Source: Candidatus Poribacteria bacterium
Lineage (GTDB): Bacteria > Poribacteria > WGA-4E > WGA-3G
NCBI GenBank assembly: GCA_958295945.1
Contig: OY282386.1
Location: forward strand, 1,687,371-1,751,370
Direction of reading: 5' to 3'
Length of the DNA: 64,000 bases
The notes under the pieces are model-generated. The model had not been told where the DNA came from. It saw only the letters and a list, made by a program, of their open reading frames with translations, and did not search any database. Positions 21,538-61,135 of this stretch are shown here, piece after piece (within the stretch, counting starts at the first letter, position 1; each line of letters begins with the position of its first letter). Both the position numbers and the translations under genes were made by a program.

Positions 21538-21591
21538 AGAATTAAGTGCCTTATCAATTGAGTTTATATAACGTGAGTTTGATAAATAGTT

Positions 21592-21813
21592 ATACCATTT
21601 CTAATAGAAAACGCCGCATTTTTGTACCACAAACTGCCAGTTTGTGCAGTCCTTCAATTGTACCACAAACTGCCAGTTTGTGCAGTCCTTCAATTGTACC
21701 ACAAACTGCCAGTTTGTGCAGTCCTTCAATTGTACCACAAACTGCCAGTTTGTGCAGTCCTTCAAGACATTCTTAACAAATGCTAATGGGATAAACATTT
21801 ATAGAAATGGTAT
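21592..21813 (+). mobile_element. MITE family A copy A4 with internal 4 x 36-bp expansion
   Basis: Standard TIRs, but the central unit gtaccacaaactgccagtttgtgcagtccttcaatt (containing the ACAAACTGcCAGTTTGT palindrome) is repeated four times. It is followed by family C copy C3 (21831-21940). Confidence 0.75.
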
Positions 21814-21990
21814 TATGACTTCCACATTGCCTCTTAAAGTCCCACTGATAAGGGGGGTAGGGGGGTTAAATAGTGCAATATTTCAGTGTTTTTGGTCTTT
21901 TTAACCCCCTAAATCCCCCTTATCAAGGGGACTTTAAGAGAAACTGCGTAAGTCCTGATGTTAATAGGATGCACATTTATAGAAATCGTC

Positions 21991-22746: not shown

Positions 22747-22906
22747 TGTATTTTCCTCCAATATGTTAATTTGAGTAACTCTATTTTACATAATACAGCA
22801 TTTTATGTCAACATCAGAGCAGTATATGCTTTTCTATCTTGATATATACACTAATCTCTGATATAATACTCATAATGAAACTCCAATAATAGCAAGAGGA
22901 AAGATC

Positions 22907-25674: not shown

Positions 25675-26532
25675 CTATAACATCTCACGCGTAAAGGTAT
25701 ATATTCCTCTCAACCAAGACCCATAATAGAAACCATTCGCATAACAGAAATATAACACCTTCAAACCAACAACACAAATCAAGCAGAACGATAACAACGC
25801 AAGCAGACTATAATCCAATCTCCTCATCTGTGAAGTGTGTAATGATGTCCGCTGTGTCGCAGTCTCCGGTGAAAACCCACGGCTTTCAACCGATTCACCA
25901 AGGTTTGTCGCGTGTCGTATATTTCCTGCCAATATAGGACGAAAACTATTGATGACACCACGCACAGAGGCAAATAGATTGAATCGTAGATAACGAAATC
26001 CTCTCAATCTCTGTGATCGTATAACAGCAACGGCTTCAGAGGCAATCACTGGAATGAAATGTAAAGCAGTTGTCACCATAAAAGCAAGTGCACCCGGCAC
26101 GCGCAACTGCGACAATGCCAGCAGCAGATCACGTGGTTGTGTTGTCCACACAATGTAGCACCCTATGGTAAGCGTAGTATTGAACCGTAGTGATTGAATG
26201 ATACCGTGATACAACCCCTCACGATAGATTTGGATACCACCTGTCCATTCCCCTATGAGCGGAAAATCTGCAGGAACAAGCGTAAGCAATACCGTGCGGG
26301 GAAATGCATTATAGAATATACCTTGACTGTATATCAATCCCCATGTCGTAAAGAAAAGAAATATCAGCAATAATCTAATCTGCTTTAGCGTAGGGATAGA
26401 AGATGCAACAAGGAGGATACTTGCCAGAAAGCAAACTAACAGCGCGGATGGACTGTCCAGTAAAATGACGAGACATCCGCATATCATCATGATGAGGACT
26501 TTTGTGCGGGATTCCAGTTTGAAGCATTGCAT
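25675..26532 (-). CDS. Putative ECF transporter transmembrane (T) component, EcfT/CbiQ family
   Basis: Polytopic membrane protein with the conserved C-terminal coupling motifs ...HFIPVIASEAVAVIRSQRLRGF and ...FASVRGV (Ala-x3-Arg-Gly type). It is on the same strand as the fused ECF-type ATPase at 37021-38529. Confidence 0.5.
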   Translation of the reverse strand: MQCFKLESRTKVLIMMICGCLVILLDSPSALLVCFLASILLVASSIPTLKQIRLLLIFLFFTTWGLIYSQGIFYNAFPRTVLLTLVPADFPLIGEWTGGIQIYREGLYHGIIQSLRFNTTLTIGCYIVWTTQPRDLLLALSQLRVPGALAFMVTTALHFIPVIASEAVAVIRSQRLRGFRYLRFNLFASVRGVINSFRPILAGNIRHATNLGESVESRGFSPETATQRTSLHTSQMRRLDYSLLALLSFCLICVVGLKVLYFCYANGFYYGSWLRGIYTFTREML

Positions 26533-26546
26533 TGTCAGTTAACTCT

Positions 26547-29500
26547 CTATTTCCGTATCAACATCTTGCGTGTAGCAGTGAAATCACCTGCGGTTAATGT
26601 ATAAAAGTAGATTCCGCTTGCAACGCGTTCACCTTGGGCATTTTTGCCATCCCAATGGGCTGCACGGTTGCGATGCTCATATACTCCAGCAGCCTTATGA
26701 CCAAACGACAACGTTCTTATCAATATGCCATTGACCGCATAGATGCGTACCGTTACTTCTGCAGGTTTTGCTAAGTGATACGGTATCCACGTCTCTGGGT
26801 TGAAAGGATTCGGATAGTTAGCCAAGAGTGTTGTCTTTTCTGGCAACATGGAGGCAAGCAGCTGCTCAAGTACAATGATTCCTCTTTGGAATGTTTCATC
26901 TCTGTTTGTTCGTTGCTTTGCTTCGTCAATCCATCTTTGCAAGTTCTCTGCTGTCAAAACAGCTGCAGGTGCAGTAGGTGTGTTTTCTAATGCTGCCATG
27001 ACCAATGCTAAATCATCACTGTTAACAACACCATCTCCGTTTACGTCTGGATTCGGATATGTACCTTTAGATGGGATTGTGCCGATAGTTGCAGCGACTA
27101 ACACGAGGTCTTCTACATCAACGATACCATCCGCATTCACATCTTCTGGAACATGGTTCTCTGGCAAGACGACATGTGCGATAAAGGTAAGTTGAGAATT
27201 AATACCTTCTGCAGTCACATTAACAGTGATAGTGATAGTACCAAGTTTCCATCCAAATCGAAGAAAAGTTTGTGCTCTACCGGCGGCATCGGTCGTAACG
27301 GTAGTATCAGTCAGTTCTGCATCACCATCGGTTATAGAAAATGTAACCTTCACTCCCTCTTTTGGATTCCCATTAGCATCACGATATTCCACAACGAAGG
27401 GGGCAGGGAGTGTCCTCCCCACAAGTTCTTCTTGTTTATCACCAGATATTATGAGGAATTCTGGGTGCGTAATATTGTCAAAAGATACTACAATTCCTCT
27501 TGCCTGCATAGCAGGGATGTGTGTCCGTATTGCTTCATTATTAAGTGGATTGTTTCTAATATCTAGCCCCGTGCTATCCCACTGCGTTCCTGTTAGGTTT
27601 AATGCTAACAGAGGTGACATATCTGATATGTTATTGTAGCGAAGATGCAGATGAGTCAAGTTTGTCAACGCTGATAGTGCAGAAGTATCTGATATGTTAT
27701 TGTTGAAAAGATATAGCTGAGTCAGGTTTGTTAACCCTAATAGTGCAGATATATCTGAAATGTTGTTGCGGCCAAGCCTCAGCAAAGCCAAGTTTGTCAA
27801 CTCTGACTCTGATAGTGCAGAAATATCTGATATGTTATTGTCATCAAGATACAGCCGAGTCAGGTTTGCCAATCCCGACAGCGCAGACACATCCGATATG
27901 TTGTTGCTGTCCAGATTCAACCAATCCAGTTTGGATGCATGTTCAAGGCCGGTAAGGTCTTGAATGTCGGCGTTTCGGGCATCAAGTCTGGTTAATTCCA
28001 ACAAATCTCCTGCCTTGAGTTTTGCGTTCTTCGGTTTGTTAAGGGTTTCTGCAATTTTGGTGTGGAGGTTCACGTCCGGAATATGTACAAGCATGTCCCC
28101 ATCAATAGCCGTGATCGTAAAGTTTAGCGGCTGTGGAATCTCGGTGACTGTAGCACTGACAGTGTTCTCACCGGGCTCGGGTCCCAGTGTGAGCGTTGTA
28201 GCAGCTTTGCCATTGAGACTGCTAATCGCTTTTGATGTCGAGCGATGACCACCTAAAGTTGTGAGCGTGAAATTGACCGGCACCCCCGCAAACGCAACGC
28301 CCTTCTGATCTTGGACTTGGACGATTACTTGACGTGGGGTGCCAGCGACTCCAGATGGACCTGGAATATTAATAAGCGTTGTAGGCGTTCGGGTGTCAAA
28401 CACTACATCCACACCGTGGGAACGCAGGGTTGGAATAGTGGTATAGAGTGACGGATAACTCAGCAGGTTTCCGCGTAGATGCAACGTTTTCAATTCGGTG
28501 AGTTCCACAAGAGGCTCAACCTCTGAGATTTTATTGTTTTCAAGGGACAATGTCCCTAATTGTGTGAGTTCTACCAAAGGCGCAATATCAGAGAGATTAT
28601 TGTTGTCAAGAGATAGTGTCGTCAGTTGCGTAAGTCCCGTTAGCGAATCTATATTGGATAGGTTGTTGCTATTAAGCTTCAAACTTGTTAGATTAGATGC
28701 ATGTTGCAATCCTGTGAGGTTGCTAATACCAGCGTTGTTAGCGGTAAGGGATGTCAGAGCCAACATATCTCCCATAGTAATAGGTGCATCGGTCGGTTTA
28801 CCGGATGTTTCCGCTATCTTGGCACTCAGATTAGCATCGGAAAGTGTCACGGTTGAATCAAGTGAGATACTTGTTACTGTAAACAGGACAGATTGAGAAA
28901 CGTTTGGTGCAGAAGCTTGGACGGTCATTGTGCCGCCCGTTTCTCCAAGTGTCAATCGAGTTTGTGCATTGCCAGCCTTATCAGTTTTTGCCGTTGTGGC
29001 ACTGAGTTCTCCACTGCCTTTAGTGATTGAAAATGTTACAGGAACCTCCGCGAATGGGCGATTGGACTGATCTCGGACTTGGACAACGTATGGAAGTGGT
29101 AATTCTGAATTAGTTATCGCTTGCTGCGCATCACCAGATATTTTTAGGAGTTTCGTTGGTGTGCGCTGGCTATACTGGACCTCAACCCCTTTTGCCTGCA
29201 TAGCAGGAATATGGGTGTTGATAGCAACGTAGCTAAGGGGATTGTTCCAAAGATATAGCCCCGTGCTATCCCACTCTGTTCCTATAAGGTTTAATTTCAC
29301 CAAGGGTGATACATCCGAGATGTTATTGTTGTGAAGCTGCAGTTGCGTTAGGTTTGTCAATCCTGATAGTGCAGATATATCTGATATGTTATTGTTGGCA
29401 AGAAGCAGCGAATTCAAGTTTGTCAATCCTGACAACGCAGACACATCCGAGATGTTATTGTTGTGAAGCCACAGTTGCGTTAGGTTTGTCAATCCTGATA

Positions 29501-32500
29501 GTGCAGATATATCTGATATGTTATTGTTGACAAGATCCAGCGAATTCAAGTTTGTCAATTCTGATAGCGCAGACAAATCAACCAATATCGTGTGAGAGAG
29601 GTTCAGGTATGTCAATGCGGTTAGCCCTATAAGCGGTGACAAATTCGATACTGTATTACTGTTGACAGTTCCCTCCCCCTCAATGTACTCAGCCCCAAGG
29701 TTCAAGGAACTCAGGTTGGACGCATATTCAATACCGGTAAGGTCTTGAATGTTGGCGTTTTGTGCGTCAAGTCTGGTTAATGCCAACAAATCTCCAGCAT
29801 TGAGTTTTGCGTTTTTGGGTTTGTTGAGGGTTTCCACTATTTTGGCATAGAGGTTCACATCGGGAATATGCACAAGCGTGTTCCCATCAATAGCCGTGAT
29901 CGTAAAGTTTAGCGGCTGTGGAATCTCGGTGACTGTAGCACTGACAGTGTTCTCACCGGGCTCGGGTCCCAGTGTGAGCGTTGTAGCAGCTTTGCCATTG
30001 AGACTGCTAATCGCTTTTGATGTCCAGCGATGACCACCTGAAGTTGTGAGCGTGAAATTGACCGGCACCCCCGCAAATGCAACGCCTTTCTGATCTTGGA
30101 CTTGGACGATTACTTGTAGTGTGGCACCCGCAACTCCAGGTGTTCCTGGAATGTTAATAAGTGTTGTCGGGGTTCGGGTGTCAACCACTACATCCACACC
30201 GTGGGAACGCAGGGTCGGAATAGTGGTATAGAGTGACGGATAACTCAGCAGGTTTCCGTGTAGACGCAACGTTTTCAAGTCGGTGAGTTCCACAAGAGGT
30301 GCTACATCGGATAGTTTATTGTTTTCAAGAGACAGTGTCTCTAATTGTGTGAGTTCTACCAAAGGCGCAATATTAGAGAGATTATTGTTGTCAAGTGATA
30401 ATGTCGTCAGTTGCGTAAGTCCTGTTAGCGAATCTATATTGGATAGGTTGTTGCTATTAAGCTTCAAGCTTGTTAGATTAGATGCATGTTGCAATCCCGT
30501 GAGGGTGCTAATACTGGCATTGTTAGCAGTAAGTGATGTCAACGTCAACATATCGGCTACAGTAATAGATGCGTCGGTCGGTTTACCGAGGGTTTCTATT
30601 ATCTTTGCGGTAAGGTTCGTATCGGGCAGGTGCACGAATGAAGTGGGAAGGATCGCTGTTACCGTAAATTGTATGGGCTGCGAAATCTTCACTGCTGTCA
30701 CGCGGATGGTTGTTTCCCCCTCGGTTTGTCCTAACGTAAAACGTGCTTTTGCCCTACCTTTAGCATCCGTTGTGGTGTTAGTGGTGCTGAGTTTTCCACC
30801 GCCCTTGGTAATTGAAAATGTTACAGGAACCTCCGCGAATGGGCGATTGGACTGATCTCGGACTTGGGCAACAAATGGAAGTGGTAATTTTGTATTGGTC
30901 AAGGCTTGTTGTGTGTCGCCAGATATCTTTAGGAGTTTCGTTGGTGTGCGCTGGCTATACTGGACCTCAACCCCTTTTGCCTGCATAGCAGGGATATGGG
31001 TGTTGATAGAAACGTAGCTAAGGGGATTGATCCAAAGATATAGCCCCGTGCTATCCCACTGTGTTCCTATAAGGTTTAATTTCACCAAGGGTGATACATC
31101 CGAGATGTTATTGTTGTGAAGCTGCAGTTGCGTTAGGTTTGTCAATCCTGATAGTGCAGATATATCTGATATGTTATTGTTGGCAAGAAGCAGCGAATTC
31201 AAGTTTGTCAATCCTGACAACGCAGACACATCCGAGATGTTATTGTTGTGAAGCCACAGTTGCGTTAGGTTTGTCAACTCTGATAGCACAGACACATCTG
31301 AAATGTTGTTGCTGCCAAGATCCAGCCGAGTCAGGTTTGTCAATCCTGATAGCACAGACACATCTGAAATGTTGTTGCTGCCAAGATTCAGCCGAGTCAG
31401 GTTTGTCAATCCTGATAGTGCAGATATATCTGAAATGTTGTTGTTGGCAAGATACAGCGAACTCATATTTTTGAGTTCTGATAGCACTGATATATCTGAT
31501 ATGTTATTGTTGTTGAGATTCAGCGAAGTCAGGTTTGTCAACTCTGACAACGCAGACACATCTGAAATGTTGTTGCCGGAAAGATGTAACCAATTCAGTT
31601 GTGTCAACTCTGATAGCACAGACACATCTGAAATGTTGTTGCTGCCAAGATCCAGCCGAGTCAGGTTTGTCAATCCTGATAGCGCAGAAACATCTGATAT
31701 GGTGTTGTTGTTAAGCACCAACCAAGTCAGTTGTGTTAACTCTGACAGTGGCGACACATCTGAAATATTGGTGTTCCAAAGATTCAGCGAAGTCAGGTTT
31801 GTCGACTCTGACAACGCAGACAGATCTGATATGTTATTGTTGTTGAGATTCAGCGAAGTCAGGTTTGTCAACTCTGACAACGCAGACAGATCCAATACCG
31901 TATTGCTGTTGACATATCCCTCGCCCTCAATATACTCAGTTCCAAGGTTCAACGATCTCAGATTGTGCGCGTGTTCAAGCCCGGTGAGGTCTGTTATCCC
32001 GCTATTTGGCGTATCAAGTTTCCATAAGTTTAGCATAGAGTGCGTCGTGAGAGCTTGGGTTGAAGATAGATTGAGAGCTTGCCGCACTGCCAACGCTAAA
32101 GTAGCGTCCGGAATTGAAACAACTTGGGATGGAGGAAGTAGAGAGCTGATATCAATTGGAAATACTCGGCTTGTTATAAAACTTCCAAACACATCAATTA
32201 TCTGGAGTTCTACGACGTTATTTTTGGGTGGCAAACCGGTAGTGATAAATTCAATCGTGCTGCTTTGGCCGTTTAGCAGCTTACAACCAAGCAAACCTCC
32301 TCCAAGTCCACGTGGTTCTGTTTCGGGCGTAAGCAATAAGGCTTGATGGAGCCCATCGGGATCAGTCACTTCAAAACGGAGGCGGATCGTATTGGGAGGC
32401 GCAGCGAGACTGGGTGGAAGCATCTTGATCGTTCCGGATTGATTCTTAGAAACAGTTTGGTCTGTATTAAAGGCAGGGTTCATATTCAACACTTCCGCGG

Positions 32501-33092
32501 CACATTTTGAGAGTCTATTCTTGCTGCCGTGATAAGACATAATGTACGCAGGACCGCGGAAATCATGCCAAACCATTCCAAACGCATGGCCGAGTTCATG
32601 GGCAATGGTTTGCCAATTCCAACAGTAGTTAGTTGCTGATCCAGTGACTCCGTTACCGCCACCGAATCCGCATACACCATGAGGCAGTTCCTTTGCCCCA
32701 TGTGTGTCAAACATAATCACATAAATGCCTCTCTGTGGGGGTATAAACTGTTCTATATCTTCTTCATTCCGATTGATATGATTGTGCAAATAATGTGCAT
32801 AAGTAAATTTCCCGACTGTATGATGGACCACGGCGTTTCCGCTGGCATCGGTTTCAAACTGAAAGGTTTTTCTACCGAATCCGTGGCGTTCCATTTCATC
32901 AGCAAAGAAAAGTTGTGCTTTCTTGATGAGTGCGTCGATCTCTGTATCTACGTTGGGGCGGAGTGCCGTGTCGCTTGCGCGGAAGTAGATGAGTCGCACA
33001 ATCGGGCGAGAATCTTGTGCCTGCACAAAATGCGGTATGAAAATAAGTGCTATAAGACATGCCAGTCCAATTGAAAATAGTTTTCTATTCAT
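26547..33092 (-). CDS. Giant secreted metzincin-like metalloprotease / leucine-rich-repeat / Big-like Ig / dockerin protein with a T9SS C-terminal sorting domain
   Basis: Signal peptide MNRKLFSIGLACLIALIFIPHFVQA. N-terminal Zn-protease domain with HELGHAFGMVWHD and a Met-turn YIMSY. Long arrays of 24-residue LRRs (LTNLT.L.L..NNISDVSALSG). Repeated Big-like Ig domains. Dockerin-like DVNADGIVDVEDL...DVNGDGVVNSDDLALV. C-terminal Por_Secre_tail-like NYPNPFNPETWIPYHL...SGIYFYTLTAGDFTATRKMLIRK. Confidence 0.8.
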   Translation of the reverse strand: MNRKLFSIGLACLIALIFIPHFVQAQDSRPIVRLIYFRASDTALRPNVDTEIDALIKKAQLFFADEMERHGFGRKTFQFETDASGNAVVHHTVGKFTYAHYLHNHINRNEEDIEQFIPPQRGIYVIMFDTHGAKELPHGVCGFGGGNGVTGSATNYCWNWQTIAHELGHAFGMVWHDFRGPAYIMSYHGSKNRLSKCAAEVLNMNPAFNTDQTVSKNQSGTIKMLPPSLAAPPNTIRLRFEVTDPDGLHQALLLTPETEPRGLGGGLLGCKLLNGQSSTIEFITTGLPPKNNVVELQIIDVFGSFITSRVFPIDISSLLPPSQVVSIPDATLALAVRQALNLSSTQALTTHSMLNLWKLDTPNSGITDLTGLEHAHNLRSLNLGTEYIEGEGYVNSNTVLDLSALSELTNLTSLNLNNNNISDLSALSESTNLTSLNLWNTNISDVSPLSELTQLTWLVLNNNTISDVSALSGLTNLTRLDLGSNNISDVSVLSELTQLNWLHLSGNNISDVSALSELTNLTSLNLNNNNISDISVLSELKNMSSLYLANNNISDISALSGLTNLTRLNLGSNNISDVSVLSGLTNLTRLDLGSNNISDVSVLSELTNLTQLWLHNNNISDVSALSGLTNLNSLLLANNNISDISALSGLTNLTQLQLHNNNISDVSPLVKLNLIGTQWDSTGLYLWINPLSYVSINTHIPAMQAKGVEVQYSQRTPTKLLKISGDTQQALTNTKLPLPFVAQVRDQSNRPFAEVPVTFSITKGGGKLSTTNTTTDAKGRAKARFTLGQTEGETTIRVTAVKISQPIQFTVTAILPTSFVHLPDTNLTAKIIETLGKPTDASITVADMLTLTSLTANNASISTLTGLQHASNLTSLKLNSNNLSNIDSLTGLTQLTTLSLDNNNLSNIAPLVELTQLETLSLENNKLSDVAPLVELTDLKTLRLHGNLLSYPSLYTTIPTLRSHGVDVVVDTRTPTTLINIPGTPGVAGATLQVIVQVQDQKGVAFAGVPVNFTLTTSGGHRWTSKAISSLNGKAATTLTLGPEPGENTVSATVTEIPQPLNFTITAIDGNTLVHIPDVNLYAKIVETLNKPKNAKLNAGDLLALTRLDAQNANIQDLTGIEYASNLSSLNLGAEYIEGEGTVNSNTVSNLSPLIGLTALTYLNLSHTILVDLSALSELTNLNSLDLVNNNISDISALSGLTNLTQLWLHNNNISDVSALSGLTNLNSLLLANNNISDISALSGLTNLTQLQLHNNNISDVSPLVKLNLIGTEWDSTGLYLWNNPLSYVAINTHIPAMQAKGVEVQYSQRTPTKLLKISGDAQQAITNSELPLPYVVQVRDQSNRPFAEVPVTFSITKGSGELSATTAKTDKAGNAQTRLTLGETGGTMTVQASAPNVSQSVLFTVTSISLDSTVTLSDANLSAKIAETSGKPTDAPITMGDMLALTSLTANNAGISNLTGLQHASNLTSLKLNSNNLSNIDSLTGLTQLTTLSLDNNNLSDIAPLVELTQLGTLSLENNKISEVEPLVELTELKTLHLRGNLLSYPSLYTTIPTLRSHGVDVVFDTRTPTTLINIPGPSGVAGTPRQVIVQVQDQKGVAFAGVPVNFTLTTLGGHRSTSKAISSLNGKAATTLTLGPEPGENTVSATVTEIPQPLNFTITAIDGDMLVHIPDVNLHTKIAETLNKPKNAKLKAGDLLELTRLDARNADIQDLTGLEHASKLDWLNLDSNNISDVSALSGLANLTRLYLDDNNISDISALSESELTNLALLRLGRNNISDISALLGLTNLTQLYLFNNNISDTSALSALTNLTHLHLRYNNISDMSPLLALNLTGTQWDSTGLDIRNNPLNNEAIRTHIPAMQARGIVVSFDNITHPEFLIISGDKQEELVGRTLPAPFVVEYRDANGNPKEGVKVTFSITDGDAELTDTTVTTDAAGRAQTFLRFGWKLGTITITVNVTAEGINSQLTFIAHVVLPENHVPEDVNADGIVDVEDLVLVAATIGTIPSKGTYPNPDVNGDGVVNSDDLALVMAALENTPTAPAAVLTAENLQRWIDEAKQRTNRDETFQRGIIVLEQLLASMLPEKTTLLANYPNPFNPETWIPYHLAKPAEVTVRIYAVNGILIRTLSFGHKAAGVYEHRNRAAHWDGKNAQGERVASGIYFYTLTAGDFTATRKMLIRK
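27600..31250. repeat. Near-identical ~1785-bp internal tandem duplication inside the giant LRR gene
   Basis: ORF-track shadow peptides recur at an exact 1785-nt offset (28498 vs 30283; 29306 vs 31091), with >90% identity over 60-80 aa. This corresponds to a duplicated [LRR block - Big domain - LRR block - Big domain] module of 595 aa. Boundaries are approximate. Confidence 0.7.
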
Positions 33093-33150
33093 GAATACTC
33101 TCCTCTATTCTGTATTCAGAATTATGGTTCTGTTTAGACAAATTCCGGCT

Positions 33151-35826
33151 CTATTTCCGTATCAACATTTTTCGTGTAGCAGTGAAATCACCTGCGGTTA
33201 ATGTATAAAAATAGATTCCGCTTGCAACGCGTTCACCTTGTGCATTTTTGCCATCCCAATACGCTGCACGGTTGCGAAGTTCATAAATCCCCGCAGACTT
33301 ATGCCCTAACGCCAAAGACCGAATTAACGTGCCATTGACCGCATAGATGCGTACCGTTACTTCTGCAGGTTTTGCTAAGTGATATGGGACCCACGTCTCT
33401 GGATTAAAAGGATTAGGATAGTTCGTCAAAAGTGCTGTCTTTTTGGGCAACAAGGTAGTAAGCAGTTGTTCAAGTACAGTGATTCCTCTTTGGAATGTTT
33501 CATCTTTGTTAGTGAGTTGCTTCGCTTCGTCAATCCATCTTTGCAAATTCTCTGCTGTCAAAACCGCTGCAGGTGCTGTGGGTGTCGTTTCCAATGCTGC
33601 CATGACTAATGCTAAATCATCACTATTGACGACACCATCACCGTTTACGTCTGTATTAGGTATTATCCCATCTGGCTGGGTTGTGCCGATAGTTGCCGCA
33701 ACTAACACGAGGTCCTCCACATCAACGATTCCATCGGCATTGACATCTTCTGGGACATGATTTTCAGGTAGGACGACACTTGCTGTGAAGGTGAGTTGAG
33801 AATTAATACCTGCTGCAGTCACATTAACAGTGATAGTACCAAGTTTCCATCCAAATCGAAGAAAAGTTTGTGCTCTACCGGCGGCATCGGTCGTAACGGT
33901 AGTATCAGTCAGTTCTGCATCACCATCGGCTATAGAAAATGTAACTTTCACTCCCTCTTTTGGTTTTCCGTTAGCATCACGATATTCCACAACAAAGGGT
34001 GAAGGCAATGTCTTCCCCACAAGTTCTTCTTGTTTATCGCCAGATATTATCAGGAATTCTGGGTGCGTAATATTGTCAAAAGATACTACAATTCCTCTTG
34101 CCTGCATAGCAGGGATGTGTGTCCGTATTGCTTCATTATTAAGGGGATTGTTCCAAAGATATAGCCCCGTGCTATCCCACTGTGTTCCTATAAGGTTTAA
34201 TTTTACCAAGGGTGATACATCCGAGATGTTATTGTTGTGAAGCCACAGTTGCGTTAGGTTTGTCAATCCTGATAGTGCAGATATATCTGATATGTTGTTG
34301 TTGGCAAGATACAGCGAACTCATATTTTTGAGTTCTGATAGCACTGATATATCTGATATGTTATTGTTGTCAAGACGCAGGTAACTCATATTTTTGAGTT
34401 CTGATATCACTGAAATATCAAAAATGTTATTGTTCCCAAGACGCAGGTAACTCATATTTTTGAGTTCTGATAGTGCAGATATATCTGATATGTTATTGTT
34501 GGCAAGATACAGCGAACTCATATTTTTGAGTTCTGATAGCACTGATATATCTGATATGTTATTGTCATAAAGATTCAGCGAAGTCAGGTTTGTCAACTCT
34601 GACAACGCAGACACATCTGAAATGTTGTTGCTGCCAAGATTCAGCCGAGTCAGGTTTGTCAACTCTGACAACGGAGACAGCTCCGATACCGTATTGCTGT
34701 TGACAGTTCCCTCGCCCTCAATGGACTCAGCCCCAAGGTTCAACGATCTCAGATTGTGCGCATGTTCAAGCCCGGTGAGGTCTGTTATTCCACTGTTGGG
34801 GACATCAAGTATCCTCAAGTTTAGTATAGAGTGCGTCGTGATGGCTTGACTTGAAGATAGTCTGAAGGTCTGTCTAACTGCTGCTGCTAAATTTGCATCT
34901 GGAATAGACACAACTTCAGCTTGAGGTAGCAGCGAAGTAACATTAATTGGAAACTTCTGAAAGTTCCATGTGAAGTTGCCATGTACATCAATAGCCATAA
35001 GGGATACAGACTTATTATTCGGTGTCAAATTGGTGACAAATTCAACAGTGGTATTTGTGGTTCCGTTTAGTGCTTTATAGCTAAGCAATTCAGAGGATCC
35101 ATAAGCTATACCAGGGGTAACGGTGGGTGTGAGGAGTTGTACCTGGTGAAGTCCATCCGGATCAGTTACCTTAAAGCGGAAACGGATGGTATTTGGAGGC
35201 GAGTCAAGACTTGATGAAAGCATTTCTATTTTTGTAGGTTCGTTCTCGGCACTTCGGCCGGGATTGAAGGCACGGTGGGTATCTAACCATTCAGCTGTAC
35301 AATGAGAAAGTTGAGGCCTTATTTTGGGTCCGTAAGACATGATGTAGTTATCGCTGCCGATGCGGAAATCGTGTTTCAATCCGAAGGCATGTCCGAGTTC
35401 ATGGGCAACGGTCTTCCAATTCCAGCAGTAGATAGTTGCGTGGCCTTTGTGACCTTCCGAACCTGATGCACCCGCGACACCGCAAACTCCTTGAGTTTGG
35501 TTTCCTCCTTCCATATAGACAACAATATTCTTACCGGGGCTGTCAAGCTTTCCATGGTGTACCACGGTGTTCCCGCTTGCATCCGTTTCAAATTGAAAGG
35601 TTTTTCTACCGAACCCGTGGCGTTCCATTTCATCCGCAAAGAAACGTTGCGTTTCCTTGATTAATGCATCAATTTCTGTGTCCGCATCAAGGCGAGGTGG
35701 GCTTCCAGGTAAGGGGCGGTAGACGACTCGCACCATCGGGCGAGAATCTTGTGCATGCACAAAATGCGGTATCAAAAAAAGTGCTATAAGACATGCAAAT
35801 CCAATTGAAAATCGTTTTCTATTCAT
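33151..35826 (-). CDS. Secreted metzincin-like metalloprotease / LRR / dockerin protein with T9SS C-terminal domain (paralogue of 26547-33092)
   Basis: Signal peptide MNRKRFSIGFACLIALFLIPHFVHA. Canonical metzincin motif HELGHAFGLKHD (HExxHxxGxxHD, adamalysin/reprolysin-like) with Met-turn YIMSY. NNISDISVLSELKNMS LRR arrays, dockerin and Por_Secre_tail. The N-terminal and C-terminal ~280 aa are ~90% identical to the larger paralogue. Confidence 0.8.
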   Translation of the reverse strand: MNRKRFSIGFACLIALFLIPHFVHAQDSRPMVRVVYRPLPGSPPRLDADTEIDALIKETQRFFADEMERHGFGRKTFQFETDASGNTVVHHGKLDSPGKNIVVYMEGGNQTQGVCGVAGASGSEGHKGHATIYCWNWKTVAHELGHAFGLKHDFRIGSDNYIMSYGPKIRPQLSHCTAEWLDTHRAFNPGRSAENEPTKIEMLSSSLDSPPNTIRFRFKVTDPDGLHQVQLLTPTVTPGIAYGSSELLSYKALNGTTNTTVEFVTNLTPNNKSVSLMAIDVHGNFTWNFQKFPINVTSLLPQAEVVSIPDANLAAAVRQTFRLSSSQAITTHSILNLRILDVPNSGITDLTGLEHAHNLRSLNLGAESIEGEGTVNSNTVSELSPLSELTNLTRLNLGSNNISDVSALSELTNLTSLNLYDNNISDISVLSELKNMSSLYLANNNISDISALSELKNMSYLRLGNNNIFDISVISELKNMSYLRLDNNNISDISVLSELKNMSSLYLANNNISDISALSGLTNLTQLWLHNNNISDVSPLVKLNLIGTQWDSTGLYLWNNPLNNEAIRTHIPAMQARGIVVSFDNITHPEFLIISGDKQEELVGKTLPSPFVVEYRDANGKPKEGVKVTFSIADGDAELTDTTVTTDAAGRAQTFLRFGWKLGTITVNVTAAGINSQLTFTASVVLPENHVPEDVNADGIVDVEDLVLVAATIGTTQPDGIIPNTDVNGDGVVNSDDLALVMAALETTPTAPAAVLTAENLQRWIDEAKQLTNKDETFQRGITVLEQLLTTLLPKKTALLTNYPNPFNPETWVPYHLAKPAEVTVRIYAVNGTLIRSLALGHKSAGIYELRNRAAYWDGKNAQGERVASGIYFYTLTAGDFTATRKMLIRK

Positions 35827-35845: not shown

Positions 35846-36937
35846 TTACGGTAAATCCATTACACAACGGAACCCGACACTGTAGTTCGTACTTTCAGGC
35901 ATGAGCATGAAGCGCGTACTGCTGCGTACATTCGCTGAGGTAACAATCCAGGAACCACCTCGTAACACCCGATTTGATTGAACTATTTCAAAGTTTTCAA
36001 TGATCTCTTGAATGGCATTTGCCCCCGAAAATGGATTTCCAGTTTGAGAAACAGCATAAAAATCCGCATCATATTCATCAAGGCACCACTCCCATACGTT
36101 GCCAGCCATATCAAACAAACCGTAGCTATTTTTAGGATAACTACCGACTGGGGCAGCGAATGCGTAACCATCATCTGCTTTTTTGTCTGACCACCAATAG
36201 TGTGGTAAATTCTTATCAGCGAAATTACACTGTTTTCCATTTGGCGCGAGGTTTCCCCATGGATATGTCTTTGCTATCATACCACCGCGGGCTGCCTTCT
36301 CCCATTCCGCTTCGGTTGGCAACCTCTTTCCTGCCCATGTTGCGAACGCCATTGCATCGTGCCAACTCACAAAAACAATAGGATGTTGATCCGTAGGAGC
36401 ATATTGCGTAACTTTCACCCACTCAGGTTCCCGATGTCCGGTTTCCTCAACAAACTGCTTATATTCACCGACTGTTACCTCATGTGTGTCCATGAAGAAG
36501 GAATCCACAAAAACTGTGTGGACAGGTTTTTCATCTTTTGCAGCTTCTTCTGAATCACTTCCCATTTGAAACTCTCCGCCGCGAATCATGACCATACCTT
36601 CTGGAACGACTGTATATTCAAGTGTTTGTGTGCCGTCTGTCCACGTCAGTTCAATGGTAATATCGCCCAGAGGGAAAGGACCGGTGATAGTCGTTCTATT
36701 TTTGGGTTGCTCTATCGTTCCAGGCACAGTTGTTAGGTTTTCTGGTGTACCGGTAAAAAACACAGTGATAGATTCATCTATACGGATAGTGCTGCCGTTT
36801 TCTGGTCTGGCAGATTTGAATTTGACTGGTCCTGGTTCAACAACATCTTCATCCCCAATATCGGATCCACAACCAAACAATGTGATGAGAAAAAGACATA
36901 TCGCCGTGAAAACAAAAAGGTTGATAGCTGTTTTCAT
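35846..36937 (-). CDS. Lipoprotein with formylglycine-generating-enzyme (FGE-sulfatase/SUMF1) domain
   Basis: Lipobox LITLFGCGS. An N-terminal beta-sandwich region is followed by FGE-sulfatase signatures: MVMIRGGEFQMGS, SWHDAMAFATWAGKRLPTEAEWEKAARGG, GNVWEWCLDEY, VLRGGSW and YSVGFRCV. Confidence 0.75.
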   Translation of the reverse strand: MKTAINLFVFTAICLFLITLFGCGSDIGDEDVVEPGPVKFKSARPENGSTIRIDESITVFFTGTPENLTTVPGTIEQPKNRTTITGPFPLGDITIELTWTDGTQTLEYTVVPEGMVMIRGGEFQMGSDSEEAAKDEKPVHTVFVDSFFMDTHEVTVGEYKQFVEETGHREPEWVKVTQYAPTDQHPIVFVSWHDAMAFATWAGKRLPTEAEWEKAARGGMIAKTYPWGNLAPNGKQCNFADKNLPHYWWSDKKADDGYAFAAPVGSYPKNSYGLFDMAGNVWEWCLDEYDADFYAVSQTGNPFSGANAIQEIIENFEIVQSNRVLRGGSWIVTSANVRSSTRFMLMPESTNYSVGFRCVMDLP

Positions 36938-37020: not shown

Positions 37021-38529
37021 TTATAATATTAATGAAGCATTCTGTAGGAGTTGTGGATCAGCGAAGGCACTATCAGGTGTACCATCAAAAATCAGTTCGC
37101 CGTCCCGCATCAACAGAACGCGATCCGCATATTTCAAGGTGAGTTCAATGTTATGCGTTGCGAAAATCAGCGTTTTGTTTTCTTGGCGGATTTGATTGCA
37201 GAGTTCGTCCATCATACTTTGTAAGTGTTGTGCGTCCTGTCCAGTAGTAGGTTCGTCAAGTAGGAATATATCGGGATGTAGGGCAAAGGTTGATGCAACA
37301 GCAACGCGTTGCCGTTGTCCGCGTGAAAGCGAATACGGGGCTTCTGCTGCAATATCCGATAGTCTAAACTGAGTCAAAGTGTCATTGACTAAAGTGTTCA
37401 GTTTGTCCGATTTCAACTTCAGATTCTTGGGACCAAATTTCACTTCACCCCGCACAGTCTCAGCCTGCAGCAGCAGATCTGGATTCTGAAACACAATGCC
37501 TACTTTACCTGCTAACTGATGTAGCTTCAATCGTTTCATATCTTTTCCATCAATGATAACCTGACCAGGATTAGGTTTGAGCAAACCAGCAATGAGATTG
37601 AGTAGTGTTGTTTTTCCAGATCCATTTTCACCCATAATCGCAACAACTTCACCGCGCGATACTTCCAATGATATGTCTTTGACTGCATGTACTTCACTAC
37701 TTGGATATTGATAATATAAGTTCTGGATTTCAAGGATTGGATGTGAAGTGACAGGTTGTGAGCTAATAGGTTTGATAGCATCAGTTGAATCTGGCAACTC
37801 AACACCTAAGTTGTGAAAGATTGTCGTATCTTGAAAAGCATCGGATTGTGGCAAGTCTAAACAGAGTTCCCCTTCATGCATGAGCCATACACGATTGCAT
37901 AAATGTTGTACCTGCTTGACTCGGTGGGTTGCCAGTATAACTGTAATACCGAGATCAGTATTCAGTTGTTTGATTATATTGAGAATATCTCTCGTTGCGC
38001 GTGGATCCAGATGACTTGTAGGTTCATCAAGTAGTAAGACCTGTGGTTGCATCGCACAAATTGATGCAAGTGCTACACGTTGTTTTTCACCACCAGAGAG
38101 TTCAGAGACACGTCTGTTCTCATATCCGGTCAGTCCAACTTGTTCTAATGCAAGGGTTATACGTTCTCTAATCTCTTCCTGTGGAAATCCGAGATTTTCA
38201 AGACCAAAAGCAATTTCATCCTCAACATAAGTGCAGAAGAGTTGATCGTCAGGATTTTGGAAGAGGAGTGCGACCTGTTGACAAGTGATTGCCAGTGATT
38301 GTTCAGTTACATTCTGAGCATTCACATGAACAGAACCTATCAGTGTGCCAGATGAAGAATGGGGAATTAGACCATTTATAGTGCGGAGTAATGTAGATTT
38401 GCCACAACCGGTGGGTCCTGTTAGCAGGACAAAGTCACTTGGGGCAACCTGAGCATTGATGCAATTCAGTGTAGGTATTTCTCGACTTGGGTAGGTATAG
38501 GAGAGTTGTTCAATCTGAACTGGCACCAT
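37021..38529 (-). CDS. Fused duplicated ABC ATPase (EcfA-A'/CbiO-like energy-coupling factor ATPase)
   Basis: Two complete nucleotide-binding domains with Walker A GPTGCGKST and GENGSGKTT, signatures LSGGEKQRVALA and LSRGQRQRVAVA, and Walker B LLLDEPTS and FLLDEPTT. The ATG at 38529 is preferred. The ORF-track TTG at 38571 would overlap the upstream gene by 20 nt. Confidence 0.75.
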   Translation of the reverse strand: MVPVQIEQLSYTYPSREIPTLNCINAQVAPSDFVLLTGPTGCGKSTLLRTINGLIPHSSSGTLIGSVHVNAQNVTEQSLAITCQQVALLFQNPDDQLFCTYVEDEIAFGLENLGFPQEEIRERITLALEQVGLTGYENRRVSELSGGEKQRVALASICAMQPQVLLLDEPTSHLDPRATRDILNIIKQLNTDLGITVILATHRVKQVQHLCNRVWLMHEGELCLDLPQSDAFQDTTIFHNLGVELPDSTDAIKPISSQPVTSHPILEIQNLYYQYPSSEVHAVKDISLEVSRGEVVAIMGENGSGKTTLLNLIAGLLKPNPGQVIIDGKDMKRLKLHQLAGKVGIVFQNPDLLLQAETVRGEVKFGPKNLKLKSDKLNTLVNDTLTQFRLSDIAAEAPYSLSRGQRQRVAVASTFALHPDIFLLDEPTTGQDAQHLQSMMDELCNQIRQENKTLIFATHNIELTLKYADRVLLMRDGELIFDGTPDSAFADPQLLQNASLIL

Positions 38530-38551
38530 GTTAGTATATAAACAGTATGAG

Positions 38552-47397: not shown

Positions 47398-47570
47398 TGG
47401 GACACCTTCCTCTCTGTTATATGTCTGATGCGACAATTGTTGAGGCAGCATGTAAGGTGGGTTCTTTCAGATTAAGAACTACTGTCACCGTTTTTCACCA
47501 GGTTTTCGAAATTTAGAAGAATAACTATCTCCTTCTGGATCATACGAAACTGCCACTTGTCCTTCTACTA

Positions 47571-61124: not shown

Positions 61125-61135
61125 CAGGTGTGGCT

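What the first reader, a model, noticed from the sequence alone, without database searches (positions are those of the whole stretch)
26547..35826. Two paralogous giant secreted proteins fusing a metzincin protease, eukaryote-like LRR arrays, Ig-like domains, a dockerin and a T9SS sorting tail
Both proteins begin with near-identical signal peptides. They carry an N-terminal zincin domain with a metzincin motif. The shorter protein has the exact HExxHxxGxxHD signature typical of reprolysin/adamalysin-type enzymes, followed by a Met-turn (YIMSY). Dozens of 24-residue NNISD-type leucine-rich repeats follow, then Big-like Ig domains, a calcium-binding dockerin pair and a Por_Secre_tail C-terminal domain for type IX secretion. 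A protease coupled to a long LRR ligand-binding solenoid on a surface- or cohesin-docked scaffold looks like a host- or prey-interaction effector or adhesin. I have not seen this particular combination (metzincin + LRR + dockerin + T9SS CTD) described as an architecture.
Basis: partly seen in the sequence, partly recalled or inferred. Interest (0 to 1): 0.7.

Follow-up and report, generated by a model that had tools for sequence, protein, structure and literature searches.

The report
Sponge-symbiont surface protease–LRR protein pair
Two neighbouring genes of a Poribacteria-like (sponge-symbiont type) bacterium encode large secreted proteins that join a mucinase-like zinc protease to internalin-like binding repeats and a surface-display tail; they belong to a very large but unstudied family, so they are typical of it rather than unique.

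Summary
Two intact minus-strand ORFs (26547-33092, 2181 aa; 33151-35826, 891 aa) are tandem paralogues. Each has a signal peptide, an N-terminal metzincin domain, LRR arrays, Big_1 Ig domains (5 and 1), a type I dockerin and a C-terminal sorting-type domain.

Corrections:
- The LRR period is 22 residues (66 nt), internalin/SDS22-like, not 24.
- The long copy has a one-residue insertion in the zinc motif. The short copy lacks about 30 residues that most relatives keep. Both variants recur in other genomes.

The architecture is not unique. The N-domain family has 3104 clusters at 50% identity. Of 41 long representatives, 40 carry LRRs, 32 the tail, 22 Big_1 and 22 a dockerin. Named relatives are mostly Poribacteria.

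The dockerin–tail cassette sits on thousands of other proteins, including cohesin proteins. No T9SS or cohesin genes lie in the window, and Kamke et al. 2014 found no Por secretion genes in Poribacteria, so the export route is unproven.

Best reading: a surface-displayed glycoprotein protease/adhesin aimed at host matrix. It is a new variant of a known kind, of moderate interest.

The parts
33151..35826 (-). Short paralogue gene (891 aa): signal peptide, metzincin domain, one LRR array, one Big_1, dockerin, helical linker, C-terminal sorting-type domain
   Evidence: ORF, translation, Pfam and NCBIfam
26547..33092 (-). Long paralogue gene (2181 aa): same plan, but with five LRR + Big_1 modules
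   Evidence: ORF, translation, Pfam and NCBIfam, local domain map
35752..35826 (-). Short: Sec-type signal peptide, aa 1-25 (cleavage predicted after VHA; no lipobox)
   Evidence: Read from the sequence. Conserved at the N-termini of homologues. No signal-peptide predictor was available.
35257..35742 (-). Short: catalytic metzincin domain, aa ~29-190. Zinc motif HELGHAFGLKHD at 35368-35403, Met-turn YIMSY at 35332-35346. Lacks the ~30-residue segment (helix alpha-2 and the conserved-Tyr loop) that most of the family has.
34927..35244 (-). Short: beta-sandwich domain packed on the catalytic domain, aa ~195-300, as in OgpA and Amuc_1438
34102..34914 (-). Short: N-cap plus 22-residue LRR array plus C-cap, aa ~305-575
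33757..34071 (-). Short: Big_1 Ig-like domain, aa ~586-690
33592..33750 (-). Short: type I dockerin, aa 693-745, with two Ca-loop motifs DVNADGIVDVEDL and DVNGDGVVNSDDL
   Evidence: Pfam 35.9 bits against cutoff 22.9. Motifs. Two loop-helix units in the model.
33154..33591 (-). Short: conserved two-helix linker (aa 746-802) and C-terminal beta-sandwich sorting-type domain (aa 803-891; NYPNPFNPETW...ASGIYFYTLTAGDFTATRKMLIRK)
   Evidence: TIGR04183 31.8 against 23. FlgD_ig 37.5 against 27. Cassette alignment, model, fold search.
33018..33092 (-). Long: signal peptide, aa 1-25
32133..33008 (-). Long: metzincin catalytic domain plus beta-sandwich, aa ~29-320. Zinc motif HELGHAFGMVWHD at 32562-32600 (one-residue insertion), Met-turn YIMSY at 32532-32546.
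27153..32120 (-). Long: five LRR + Big_1 modules. Approximate limits are aa 325-817, 818-1067, 1068-1408, 1409-1662 and 1663-1980. Modules 3-4 are a 1785-nt duplicate of modules 1-2 (up to 90% nt identity).
26961..27146 (-). Long: type I dockerin, aa 1983-2044
   Evidence: Pfam 36.1 bits. Motifs.
26550..26960 (-). Long: helical linker and C-terminal sorting-type domain, aa 2045-2181
   Evidence: TIGR04183 26.4 against 23. Also.
35846..36937 (-). Conserved upstream partner gene: an FGE-sulfatase-fold lipoprotein (363 aa, lipobox LFGC). It lacks the two catalytic cysteines of true formylglycine-generating enzymes. It lies 19 nt upstream of the short gene.
   Evidence: Pfam, NCBIfam (GldK 165, below cutoff 350), PDB alignment. 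The same adjacency is seen in L078 and L081.

Best explanation
These are two tandem members of a large, mostly poribacterial family of exported, cell-surface multidomain proteins.

**Proposed route and mechanism.** Each protein is made with a Sec signal peptide. Its conserved C-terminal cassette (dockerin, two-helix linker, beta-sandwich sorting-type domain) is then thought to take it to the cell surface and hold it there. The N-terminal head is a zinc metzincin with the two-domain OgpA/Amuc_1438 fold. It most likely cuts extracellular host or particle proteins, possibly glycoproteins next to O-glycosylated Ser/Thr. The internalin-like LRR + Ig modules (one or five) act as ligand-binding and spacer units that hold the protease against its target. 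The dockerin could tie the proteins to cohesin-bearing proteins that carry the same tail. An FGE-fold lipoprotein without catalytic cysteines is a conserved gene partner of unknown role.

**Shown:**
- domain content and order
- catalytic residues
- fold kinship to OgpA and Amuc_1438
- family size and the recurrence of the architecture
- reuse of the cassette on other cargo, including cohesins
- conserved FGE adjacency

**Inferred:**
- secretion route
- surface location
- glycoprotein specificity
- host target
- cohesin docking
For: **Head domain**
- H142, E143, H146 and H152 are invariant in 65 aligned family members. D153 and the motif AHELGHAFGLxHDFRxDxYIMSYG are near-invariant.
- The AF2 model has pLDDT 87.6 and pTM 0.84.
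- PDB profile hits: Amuc_1438 at E 9e-17 and OgpA at E 1e-15.
- Foldseek's top nine hits are OgpA and Amuc_1438.
- OgpA and Amuc_1438 are experimentally shown O-glycopeptidases (PMC7518263, PMC9513282).

**Binding modules**
- The LRR period is 22 aa. The best matches are internalin A, the Chlorobium Roco LRR and SDS22.

**Family**
- 3104 clusters at 50% identity reach E <= 1e-3, and 1111 reach E <= 1e-30.
- Of 41 representatives of 800 aa or more, 40 have LRR_4, 32 FlgD_ig, 24 Por_Secre_tail, 22 Big_1 and 22 Dockerin_1.
- The same architecture occurs in L002, L003, L021, L038 (2061 aa), L046 (2860 aa) and L048. Tandem copies are common.

**Cassette**
- 5858 proteins match at E <= 1e-3. Their cargo includes WD40, Big_1, PPC, LDL-receptor, ankyrin and cohesin domains. 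NCBI names them 'T9SS type A sorting domain-containing protein [Candidatus Poribacteria bacterium]'.
- Cohesin + dockerin + tail proteins were confirmed with Pfam. One lies 7 kb from an FGE + metzincin-LRR pair in L078.

**Taxa**
- Of 77 genome loci, 49 are named Poribacteria, 17 Latescibacterota, 2 Gemmatimonadota, 1 Rhodothermales and 1 Bryobacterales.

**Window context**
- WD40, lamin-tail, Laminin_G_3, PhyH and GH32 genes fit a poribacterial genome.
Against: **Glycan specificity is not established**
- In the profile alignment, the aromatic cage of OgpA (Y116, F166, W199, Y236) is only partly matched.
- The family Tyr aligns two residues from Y116. W199 (Y217 in Amuc_1438) aligns to an Asn, with an aromatic one residue earlier. 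F166 aligns to Val.

**Both window copies depart from the family consensus**
- The short copy lacks the segment that holds the conserved Tyr. This variant is shared with only 3 others of 239.
- The long copy has HExxHxxGxxxH, found in 5 of 239.

**Selection on the long-type head looks weak**
- Against its orthologue in L081, the long-type N-domain has pN/pS 0.83, not different from neutral (p 0.53).
- Its N:S ratio is higher than in the adjacent FGE gene (0.27; p 7e-4) and in the tail (0.19; p 6e-6).
- This fits relaxed constraint as well as diversifying selection.

**The export route is open**
- No T9SS genes are in the window.
- The literature reports none in Poribacteria single-cell genomes.
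- The tail's nearest solved folds are FlgD Ig domains. PorZ, PorU and T9SS substrate CTDs rank behind them.

**Other gaps**
- No cohesin gene is in the window.
- There are no expression or localisation data.
Confidence: 0.6

Rival explanations
1. They are mainly adhesins or 'eukaryote-like' host-modulating proteins. The LRR-Ig stalk is the working part, and the metzincin head is a non-catalytic or weakly catalytic binding module (a pseudo-protease), at least in the long copy.
For: - The long copy has a one-residue insertion inside the otherwise strictly spaced zinc motif.
- The short copy has lost helix alpha-2 and the conserved Tyr loop.
- pN/pS is 0.83 for the long-type N-domain against 0.19-0.27 for its neighbours.
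- About 12 of 100 N-domain ORFs in related loci lack a recognisable HExxH.
- LRR proteins of sponge symbionts are usually discussed as host-interaction factors (PMC3909097).
Against: - All four catalytic or zinc residues and the Met-turn are kept in both copies.
- They are also kept in the other carriers of each variant: P0302, P0016 and P0018 for the insertion; P0001 and L046 for the deletion.
- The two paralogues compared over a longer time show dN/dS 0.21 in the N-domain.
- H, E, H and H are invariant across 65 family members.
Confidence: 0.2
2. This is the first reader's version: a reprolysin/adamalysin-type protease exported by a canonical type IX secretion system and docked on a cohesin scaffold.
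For: - HExxHxxGxxHD and a Met-turn are present in the short copy.
- Reprolysin_4 and Reprolysin_5 pass their cutoffs narrowly.
- TIGR04183 scores above its cutoff.
- The family also occurs with the same tail in Rhodothermales, Latescibacterota and Gemmatimonadota MAGs. From my own knowledge, T9SS is expected in those lineages.
- PorZ, PorU and T9SS substrate CTDs appear among the fold hits.
- Cohesin proteins exist in related contigs.
Against: - The Reprolysin alignments cover only 25-70 residues around the zinc helix.
- Pfam Por_Secre_tail scores below its cutoff.
- The best tail matches are FlgD Ig domains.
- No T9SS genes are in the window.
- Por secretion structural genes are reported absent from poribacterial genomes.
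- The neighbouring FGE-fold lipoprotein is not GldK/PorK (165 against 350 bits; closer to true FGEs).
Confidence: 0.15
3. The long gene's repeated modules are an assembly artefact. Collapsed or expanded near-identical repeats would then have created a false 2181-aa ORF or a false tandem pair.
For: - Internal DNA repeats of 74-94% identity occur, including a 1785-nt duplication and 66-nt periodicity.
- The closest related genome (L081) has a single gene after the FGE gene, and that gene is split near its tail.
Against: - Both ORFs are uninterrupted over 6.5 and 2.7 kb.
- The repeats are diverged (mostly 74-90%), not identical.
- Equally long or longer homologues with 5-7 Big_1 modules occur on long contigs and chromosomes: L038 at 2061 aa and L046 at 2860 aa on a 4.25-Mb chromosome.
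- The two N-domains are only 59% identical.
Confidence: 0.05

Closest known systems
OgpA (Amuc_1119) and Amuc_1438, O-glycopeptidases of Akkermansia muciniphila (PDB 6Z2O/6Z2P, 8DF2/8DEK)
   Same: - Metzincin zinc site with a Met-turn.
- The same two-domain fold: a catalytic alpha/beta domain plus a packed beta-sandwich.
- Significant profile similarity from the N-terminal VxxIYF...QxFYAxxMxxHGFG...TF block to the HExxH helix.
- A secreted protein of a host-associated bacterium.
(PMC7518263, PMC9513282)
   Different: - Identity is only about 15-19%.
- The aromatic glycan cage is only partly alignable.
- The Met-turn lies closer to the third His: 11 residues against 16.
- OgpA has no appended modules, and Amuc_1438 carries a CBM51-like module. 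Here the head is followed by LRR-Ig modules, a dockerin and a sorting-type tail.
- Activity is untested.
Class 1 internalins of Listeria (InlA, InlB, InlH)
   Same: - A 22-residue LRR of the LxxLxxLxLxxNxIxDIxx type with N- and C-caps, followed by an Ig-like domain.
- InlA is the best NCBIfam hit, and InlA, InlB and InlH are among the top PDB hits.
   Different: - Scores lie far below the internalin model cutoffs (471 against 1600).
- There is no LPXTG or GW anchoring.
- The arrays are repeated up to five times and fused to a protease.
- The host is a diderm, uncultured symbiont lineage.
T9SS cargo of Bacteroidota that combine a metzincin or an LRR adhesin with a C-terminal sorting domain: karilysin and mirolysin ('KLIKK' proteases) and BspA of Tannerella forsythia (from my own knowledge, not tested here)
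   Same: - Signal peptide, functional head and C-terminal beta-sandwich sorting domain.
- The tail ends in a basic K/R-x-L-I-K/R-K-like motif (here RKMLIRK).
   Different: - The metzincin subfamily is different.
- A dockerin and a conserved helical linker precede the tail.
- The phylum has no demonstrated T9SS.
Cellulosomal type I dockerin-cohesin systems
   Same: - A duplicated calcium-loop/helix dockerin above the Pfam cutoff.
- Cohesin-domain proteins are present in the same protein pool.
   Different: - These genes carry no carbohydrate-active catalytic module.
- The cohesin proteins themselves carry a dockerin and the same tail. That suggests a surface network rather than a scaffoldin with enzyme subunits.
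- Binding is untested.
Eukaryote-like repeat proteins of Poribacteria described by Kamke et al. 2014 (PMC3909097)
   Same: - LRR (PF12799), WD40 and Ig-like domain proteins with signal peptides.
- A TIGR04183 C-terminal domain in Poribacteria, with the secretion pathway unresolved.
   Different: As far as my text searches of that paper show (searches for 'peptidase' and 'dockerin'), it does not describe the protease head, the dockerin, the cohesin partners or the OgpA kinship.

Membership tests
OgpA/Amuc_1438-type metzincin O-glycopeptidases (unclassified in MEROPS; PF12044 core) | HExxHxxGxxH zinc site with catalytic Glu, plus a Met-turn | tested here: met
   Short: HELGHAFGLKHD plus YIMSY. 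Long: the same residues with one extra residue before the third His. H, E, H and H are invariant in 65 sequences.
OgpA/Amuc_1438-type metzincin O-glycopeptidases (unclassified in MEROPS; PF12044 core) | Two-domain fold: catalytic domain with a packed C-terminal beta-sandwich that lines the substrate cleft | tested here: met
OgpA/Amuc_1438-type metzincin O-glycopeptidases (unclassified in MEROPS; PF12044 core) | Sequence homology beyond the zinc helix | tested here: met
   The profile of 23 N-domains hits 8dek/8df2 at E ~1e-16 and 6z2o at E 1e-15, over ~150-160 profile positions from the first strand to the zinc motif.
OgpA/Amuc_1438-type metzincin O-glycopeptidases (unclassified in MEROPS; PF12044 core) | Aromatic O-glycan pocket (OgpA Y116, F166, W199, Y236; Amuc_1438 Y171, Y217) | tested here: inconclusive
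   Tested by profile alignment only. The family Tyr lies 2 residues from Y116 and is deleted in the short copy. W199/Y217 aligns to Asn, with F/W one residue earlier. F166 aligns to Val. No coordinate superposition was possible.
OgpA/Amuc_1438-type metzincin O-glycopeptidases (unclassified in MEROPS; PF12044 core) | Cleavage N-terminal to O-glycosylated Ser/Thr, dependent on the glycan | not testable with these tools
   Needs enzyme assays.
Reprolysin/adamalysin (MEROPS M12B) | HExxHxxGxxHD signature | tested here: met
   Exact in the short copy. The long copy has HExxHxxGxxxHD.
Reprolysin/adamalysin (MEROPS M12B) | Whole catalytic domain matches M12B models and structures better than other metzincin families | tested here: not met
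T9SS type A cargo | C-terminal domain matching the type A sorting-domain model | tested here: met
   TIGR04183 scores 26.4 and 31.8 against cutoff 23, at the extreme C-terminus. Pfam PF18962 scores only 21 and 20 against 27, while FlgD_ig scores 33 and 37.5 against 27.
T9SS type A cargo | Tail fold closest to known T9SS CTDs | tested here: inconclusive
   Model pLDDT 75. Best Foldseek hits are FlgD at E 4e-5, then PorZ at 1e-3, PorU at 3e-3 and translocon-bound substrate CTDs at 7e-3 to 2e-2. A PDB sequence search finds only FlgD.
T9SS type A cargo | T9SS core machinery (SprA/Sov, PorV, PorU, PorK/L/M/N) encoded in the genome | not testable with these tools
   None found among the window's ORFs that were scanned. 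The whole genome is not available. Kamke et al. 2014 report no Por secretion structural genes in (incomplete) poribacterial genomes.
Type I dockerin | Duplicated calcium-binding loop-helix segment matching Dockerin_1 | tested here: met
   36.1 and 35.9 bits against cutoff 22.9. DVNADGIVDVEDL and DVNGDGVVNSDDL. Two helices follow the loops in the model.
Type I dockerin | Cognate cohesin in the same organism | tested here: inconclusive
   No cohesin in the window. Cohesin + dockerin + tail proteins score 30-48 bits against cutoff 24.1 among cassette homologues. One lies 7 kb from an orthologous gene pair in L078. Binding is untested.
Class 1 internalins | 22-residue LRR array with cap and Ig-like inter-repeat domain | tested here: met
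   66-nt and 22-aa period. Internalin A is the best NCBIfam hit. PDB internalin hits at E 1e-32 to 1e-13.
Class 1 internalins | Score above the NCBIfam internalin cutoffs, and Gram-positive wall anchoring | tested here: not met
   471 against 1600 bits (InlA) and 386 against 1050 bits (InlH). The C-terminus is a dockerin plus beta-sandwich tail, not LPXTG or GW.
GldK/PorK (for the upstream FGE-fold lipoprotein) | Score above the TIGR03525 cutoff, and adjacency to porL/M/N | tested here: not met
   165 against 350 bits. True FGEs match better than PorK in PDB (E 2e-43 against 1.5e-21). The neighbours are the ECF ATPase and the metzincin gene.
Formylglycine-generating enzyme (for the upstream lipoprotein) | Pair of catalytic, copper-binding cysteines in the C-terminal RGGS(F/W)xC...C motif | tested here: not met
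   The alignment to 6s07 shows 'RGGSWIVTSA---NVR' opposite 'KGGSFLCHESYCNRYR'. The fold family itself is met (PF03781, 224 bits).

The most novel reading that the evidence does not exclude
Poribacteria may use the conserved dockerin + helical linker + beta-sandwich tail as their own surface-display system, one that works without the canonical T9SS. On this reading, thousands of cargo proteins are exported and cross-linked on the cell surface through cohesin-dockerin contacts. The cargo includes OgpA-like glycoprotein proteases on LRR-Ig stalks, WD40 and ankyrin proteins, and cohesin proteins. Together they would form a host-facing coat that trims and binds sponge matrix glycoproteins. The protease heads would be under diversifying selection, and the cysteine-less FGE-fold lipoprotein would be a dedicated partner.
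Probability: 0.2. Interest if true: 0.75.

Novelty: new variant of a known kind. Interest (0 to 1): 0.45.

Why it matters
If the heads are active glycoprotein proteases, this family would give sponge and coral symbionts a mucinase-like tool for feeding on or remodelling host matrix. The family has more than 3000 clusters at 50% identity, mostly in Poribacteria.

It would also extend the OgpA/Amuc_1438 peptidase family, known so far from a gut bacterium, into marine symbiosis.

The tail raises a concrete question that is now answerable with closed genomes. How are T9SS-type C-terminal domains exported in a phylum where no T9SS genes were found? Do cohesin-dockerin pairs build a surface network there?

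For this window alone the result is modest. The two genes are ordinary members of that family.

Tried and rejected
- An exact-sequence look-up of the short protein in public assemblies found nothing, so the source genome could not be identified directly.
- A search for synteny of the window's neighbours (ECF transporter genes, radical SAM, VWA, MoCF) around 77 related loci found none. The position between ecfA and ecfT is specific to this genome.
- The upstream FGE-fold gene was tested as a possible T9SS ring protein GldK/PorK and rejected. It was also rejected as a true formylglycine-generating enzyme, because the cysteines are missing.
- Scans of the window ORFs of 150 aa or more that were submitted found no cohesin and no T9SS component.
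- Literature searches for Poribacteria with 'type IX secretion', with 'dockerin', and for PF12044 found no description of this architecture.
- The promoter and terminator scan was uninformative: 43 promoter-like sites against 36 expected. Co-transcription of the radical SAM, ecfA, FGE, short, long and ecfT genes is suggested only by same-strand gaps of 14-83 nt.
- Sequence and fold searches with the tail could not separate 'T9SS CTD' from 'FlgD-type Ig domain'.
- I could not obtain authentic T9SS core protein sequences or whole Poribacteria genomes within the tools. The decisive genome-wide T9SS scan was therefore not done.
- Caveat on method: the search for homologous proteins appears to list only hits up to about 1.75 times the query length. 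Architectures were therefore taken instead.


Full report
**What is there**

Two adjacent minus-strand ORFs, 26547-33092 (2181 aa) and 33151-35826 (891 aa), are intact and separated by 58 nt. Their first 30 residues are 25/30 identical and look like Sec signal peptides without a lipobox (read by eye, as no predictor was available).

The N-terminal ~300 residues are 59% identical between the two. The last ~500 residues are 78% identical. DNA repeats between and within the genes reach 88-94% identity. They include a 1785-nt internal duplication in the long gene and a 66-nt periodicity.

**Domain checks**

| Domain | Long | Short | Cutoff |
|---|---|---|---|
| LRR_4 (Pfam) | 362 bits | 112 bits | 27 |
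| Big_1 (Pfam) | 5 stretches | 1 stretch | 34.9 |
| Dockerin_1 (Pfam) | 36.1 bits | 35.9 bits | 22.9 |
| FlgD_ig (Pfam) | 33.1 bits | 37.5 bits | 27 |
| Por_Secre_tail (Pfam) | 21.3 bits | 20.4 bits | 27 (not reached) |
| TIGR04183, T9SS type A sorting domain (NCBIfam) | 26.4 bits | 31.8 bits | 23 |

The repeat unit is 22 residues, not 24. A strict motif is found 29 times in five arrays in the long protein and 8 times in the short one. The best LRR matches are internalin A, the Chlorobium Roco LRR domain and SDS22. The repeats are therefore the internalin/SDS22 class.

The long protein reads as follows:
1. signal peptide
2. protease head
3. five LRR + Big_1 modules
4. dockerin
5. a two-helix linker
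6. tail

The short protein has a single LRR + Big_1 module.

**The protease head**

The long copy has HELGHAFGMVWHD, with one extra residue before the third histidine.

The Pfam Reprolysin and Metallopep hits are marginal and cover only the zinc helix. An alignment with 63 homologues shows H142, E143, H146 and H152 invariant. The family motif is AHELGHAFGLxHDFRxDxYIMSYG.

An AlphaFold model built on that alignment is confident (pLDDT 87.6, pTM 0.84). It shows a catalytic alpha/beta domain followed by a beta-sandwich.

Three independent comparisons give the same nearest relatives:
- A profile search of PDB sequences hits Amuc_1438 at E 9e-17 and OgpA at E 1e-15.
- Foldseek's top nine hits are these two proteins.

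OgpA and Amuc_1438 are experimentally characterised O-glycopeptidases of Akkermansia muciniphila. They are metzincins that fit no MEROPS family and are proposed founders of a new one. Only about 30 residues of Amuc_1438 are covered by PF12044 (PMC7518263, PMC9513282). The head is therefore a metzincin of the OgpA/Amuc_1438 kind, not a reprolysin.

**Does it recognise glycans?**

This is not settled. From the profile alignment and the published residue lists:
- The family's near-invariant Tyr lies two positions from OgpA Y116.
- The stacking residue W199 (Y217 in Amuc_1438) aligns to an Asn, with an aromatic one residue earlier.
- F166 aligns to Val.

I could not superpose coordinates. O-glycopeptidase activity is an inference from fold kinship, not a demonstrated property.

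**Peculiarities of the two copies**

The short copy lacks about 30 residues, helix alpha-2 and the Tyr loop, that almost all relatives have. Only 4 of 239 family sequences show this short spacing, among them its closest relatives P0001 and L046.

The one-residue insertion of the long copy occurs in 5 of 239 sequences. One of them, P0302, has the identical motif. Both variants are thus inherited subclade traits rather than one-off lesions.

**The family**

An exhaustive profile search finds 3104 clusters at 50% identity at E <= 1e-3, and 1111 at E <= 1e-30. Many are 800-2300 aa long.

Of 41 long representatives scanned with Pfam, 40 have LRR_4, 38 Metallopep, 32 FlgD_ig, 24 Por_Secre_tail, 22 Big_1 and 22 Dockerin_1. 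Their majority consensus is itself head + LRRs + Ig + dockerin + linker + tail.

A scan of one genome per species returned 77 loci:

| Lineage named in the record | Loci |
|---|---|
| Candidatus Poribacteria | 49 |
| Latescibacterota | 17 |
| Gemmatimonadota | 2 |
| Rhodothermales | 1 |
| Bryobacterales | 1 |
| 'uncultured bacterium' | 7 |

Several isolate names look like sponge or coral metagenome bins. That is my reading of the names and is not verified.

Local HMM searches of these loci show the same full architecture in L002, L003, L021, L038 (2061 aa, five Big_1), L046 (2860 aa, seven Big_1) and L048. Tandem copies are frequent. Public annotation calls its members 'leucine-rich repeat domain-containing protein', 'M12 family metallo-peptidase' or 'T9SS type A sorting domain-containing protein'.

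**The tail cassette**

The last ~200 residues (dockerin, linker, beta-sandwich) are highly conserved. They match 5858 proteins with quite different cargo: WD40 propellers, Big_1, PPC, LDL-receptor repeats, ankyrin and cohesin domains.

Five cohesin + dockerin + tail proteins were confirmed with Pfam, at 30-48 bits for Cohesin against a cutoff of 24.1. One of them lies 7 kb from an orthologous gene pair on a 243-kb contig. Cohesin partners therefore exist in this protein pool, though none is in the window.

On sequence and on fold, the tail is closest to FlgD Ig domains. PorZ, PorU and translocon-bound T9SS substrate CTDs follow, so the tests do not separate the two readings.

No T9SS component was found among the window's ORFs that were scanned. 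Kamke et al. 2014 already noted TIGR04183 domains on poribacterial repeat proteins. [quoted passage not shown] Those genomes were incomplete, and I could not scan complete ones.

**Context**

On the minus strand the order is:
1. B12/radical-SAM gene (38552-40537)
2. fused ECF ATPase (37021-38571)
3. FGE-fold gene (35846-36937)
4. short gene
5. long gene
6. ECF T component (25675-26532)

The gaps are 14-83 nt, apart from a 20-nt overlap between the first two genes. The three-gene block thus separates the ATPase and T genes of an ECF transporter. No related locus shares these flanks.

The FGE-fold protein is a predicted lipoprotein. It is closest to true formylglycine-generating enzymes but lacks their two catalytic cysteines. 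It is not GldK/PorK.

The same gene sits directly upstream of a head-LRR-Big_1-dockerin-tail gene in two other contigs. These are L078 (53% identity) and L081 (83.5% identity, on a 4.78-Mb contig). It is therefore a conserved two-gene unit of unknown logic.

L081 has only one protease gene after the FGE-fold gene. That gene is orthologous to the N-terminal part of the long copy, so the tandem duplication and module expansion are recent in the window's lineage.

**Selection**

Between the long copy and its L081 orthologue:

| Region | pS | pN/pS |
|---|---|---|
| Head (N-domain) | 0.08 | 0.83 |
| FGE gene | 0.31 | 0.27 |
| Tail | 0.54 | 0.19 |

The head's ratio is not different from neutral (p 0.53). 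Its N:S ratio differs from the FGE gene (p 7e-4) and from the tail (p 6e-6).

Replacements cluster just after the Met-turn, just before the HExxH helix and near the CG strand. In OgpA these are the regions that line the substrate cleft. This fits either relaxed constraint or diversifying selection after a recent exchange of the head. One pairwise comparison cannot decide.

**Most likely mechanism**

The proteins are exported and surface-displayed. An OgpA-like zinc protease head is held on internalin-like LRR-Ig modules that bind extracellular ligands. The most plausible ligands are host matrix (glyco)proteins. The C-terminal cassette provides export, anchoring and perhaps cohesin docking.

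Shown here:
- domain content
- catalytic residues
- fold kinship
- family size and recurring architecture
- cassette reuse
- existence of cohesin proteins
- the conserved FGE-fold partner

Inferred:
- export route
- location
- substrate
- glycan dependence
- docking

I put 0.6 on this overall picture, about 0.4 on true glycan-dependent cleavage, and only about 0.15 on the reprolysin + canonical T9SS version.

**Verdict**

The genes are ordinary members of a very large but unstudied family. What is new is the recognition that the family's head is an OgpA/Amuc_1438-type peptidase joined to LRR-Ig modules and a dockerin + sorting-type tail, in a phylum with no demonstrated T9SS. I rate it a new variant of a known kind, with interest 0.45.

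Noticed in passing
window 35846-36937 (-); L078 1-1091; L081 8768-9868: An FGE-sulfatase-fold lipoprotein lacks the two catalytic cysteines of formylglycine-generating enzymes. It sits immediately upstream of a metzincin-LRR-Big_1-dockerin-tail gene in three otherwise non-syntenic contigs. Its best NCBIfam hit is GldK, but far below the cutoff. Its role is unknown.
   Followed up: partly
window 32133-33008 (-) against L081 10001-10940: Divergence from the closest orthologue is mosaic. The protease head has 4-7 times lower synonymous divergence than the flanking FGE gene and the tail, yet its pN/pS is 0.83. Replacements cluster near the predicted substrate cleft.
   Followed up: partly
window 25675-26532 (-) and 37021-38571 (-): An ECF transporter T component (CbiQ-like) and a fused double ECF ATPase are separated by the ~10.4-kb block of the FGE-fold gene and the two giant genes. 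All lie on one strand with short gaps, as if the block had been inserted into the transporter operon.
   Followed up: partly
L078 10001-11053; proteins P0160, P0177, P0180, P0195, P0229: Small (~335 aa) proteins consist of a cohesin domain followed by the same dockerin + linker + tail cassette. They are candidates for a self-linking surface network.
   Followed up: partly
window 4510-8034 (+) and 13860-18542 (+): Two further giant repeat proteins: a 1174-aa WD40 beta-propeller protein and a 1560-aa protein with two lamin-tail domains. Neither carries the dockerin or tail cassette.
   Followed up: partly
window 60453-61639 (-): A DDE_3 transposase ORF (223 aa) preceded by a helix-turn-helix ORF (167 aa). 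It looks like an IS630/Tc1-type element, possibly split by a frameshift.
   Followed up: no
window 38552-40537 (-): A 661-aa B12-binding radical SAM protein with DUF4070 overlaps the start of the ECF ATPase gene by 20 nt. The best promoter-like site on this strand (11/12 matches, 40650-40622) lies just upstream of it.
   Followed up: no
window 20677-22761 (-) and 45328-47451 (-): A PhyH dioxygenase, a Laminin_G_3 protein and a Laminin_G_3 + GH32 protein. PhyH genes were singled out as a feature of Poribacteria by Kamke et al. 2014 (their supplementary tables S10 and S11); that Laminin_G_3 and GH32 genes are also typical is my own impression. They support the taxonomic assignment of the window.
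   Followed up: no
L081 12480-13031; L080 11526-12335: In two related contigs the dockerin/tail part of the homologous gene is called as a separate overlapping ORF. This is either a real frameshift (pseudogenisation) or a long-read homopolymer error.
   Followed up: no
window 30283-30855, 31303-32346 (+): Long antisense ORFs (190 and 347 aa) lie inside the LRR-coding repeats. They are most likely by-products of the repetitive coding sequence, not genes.
   Followed up: no
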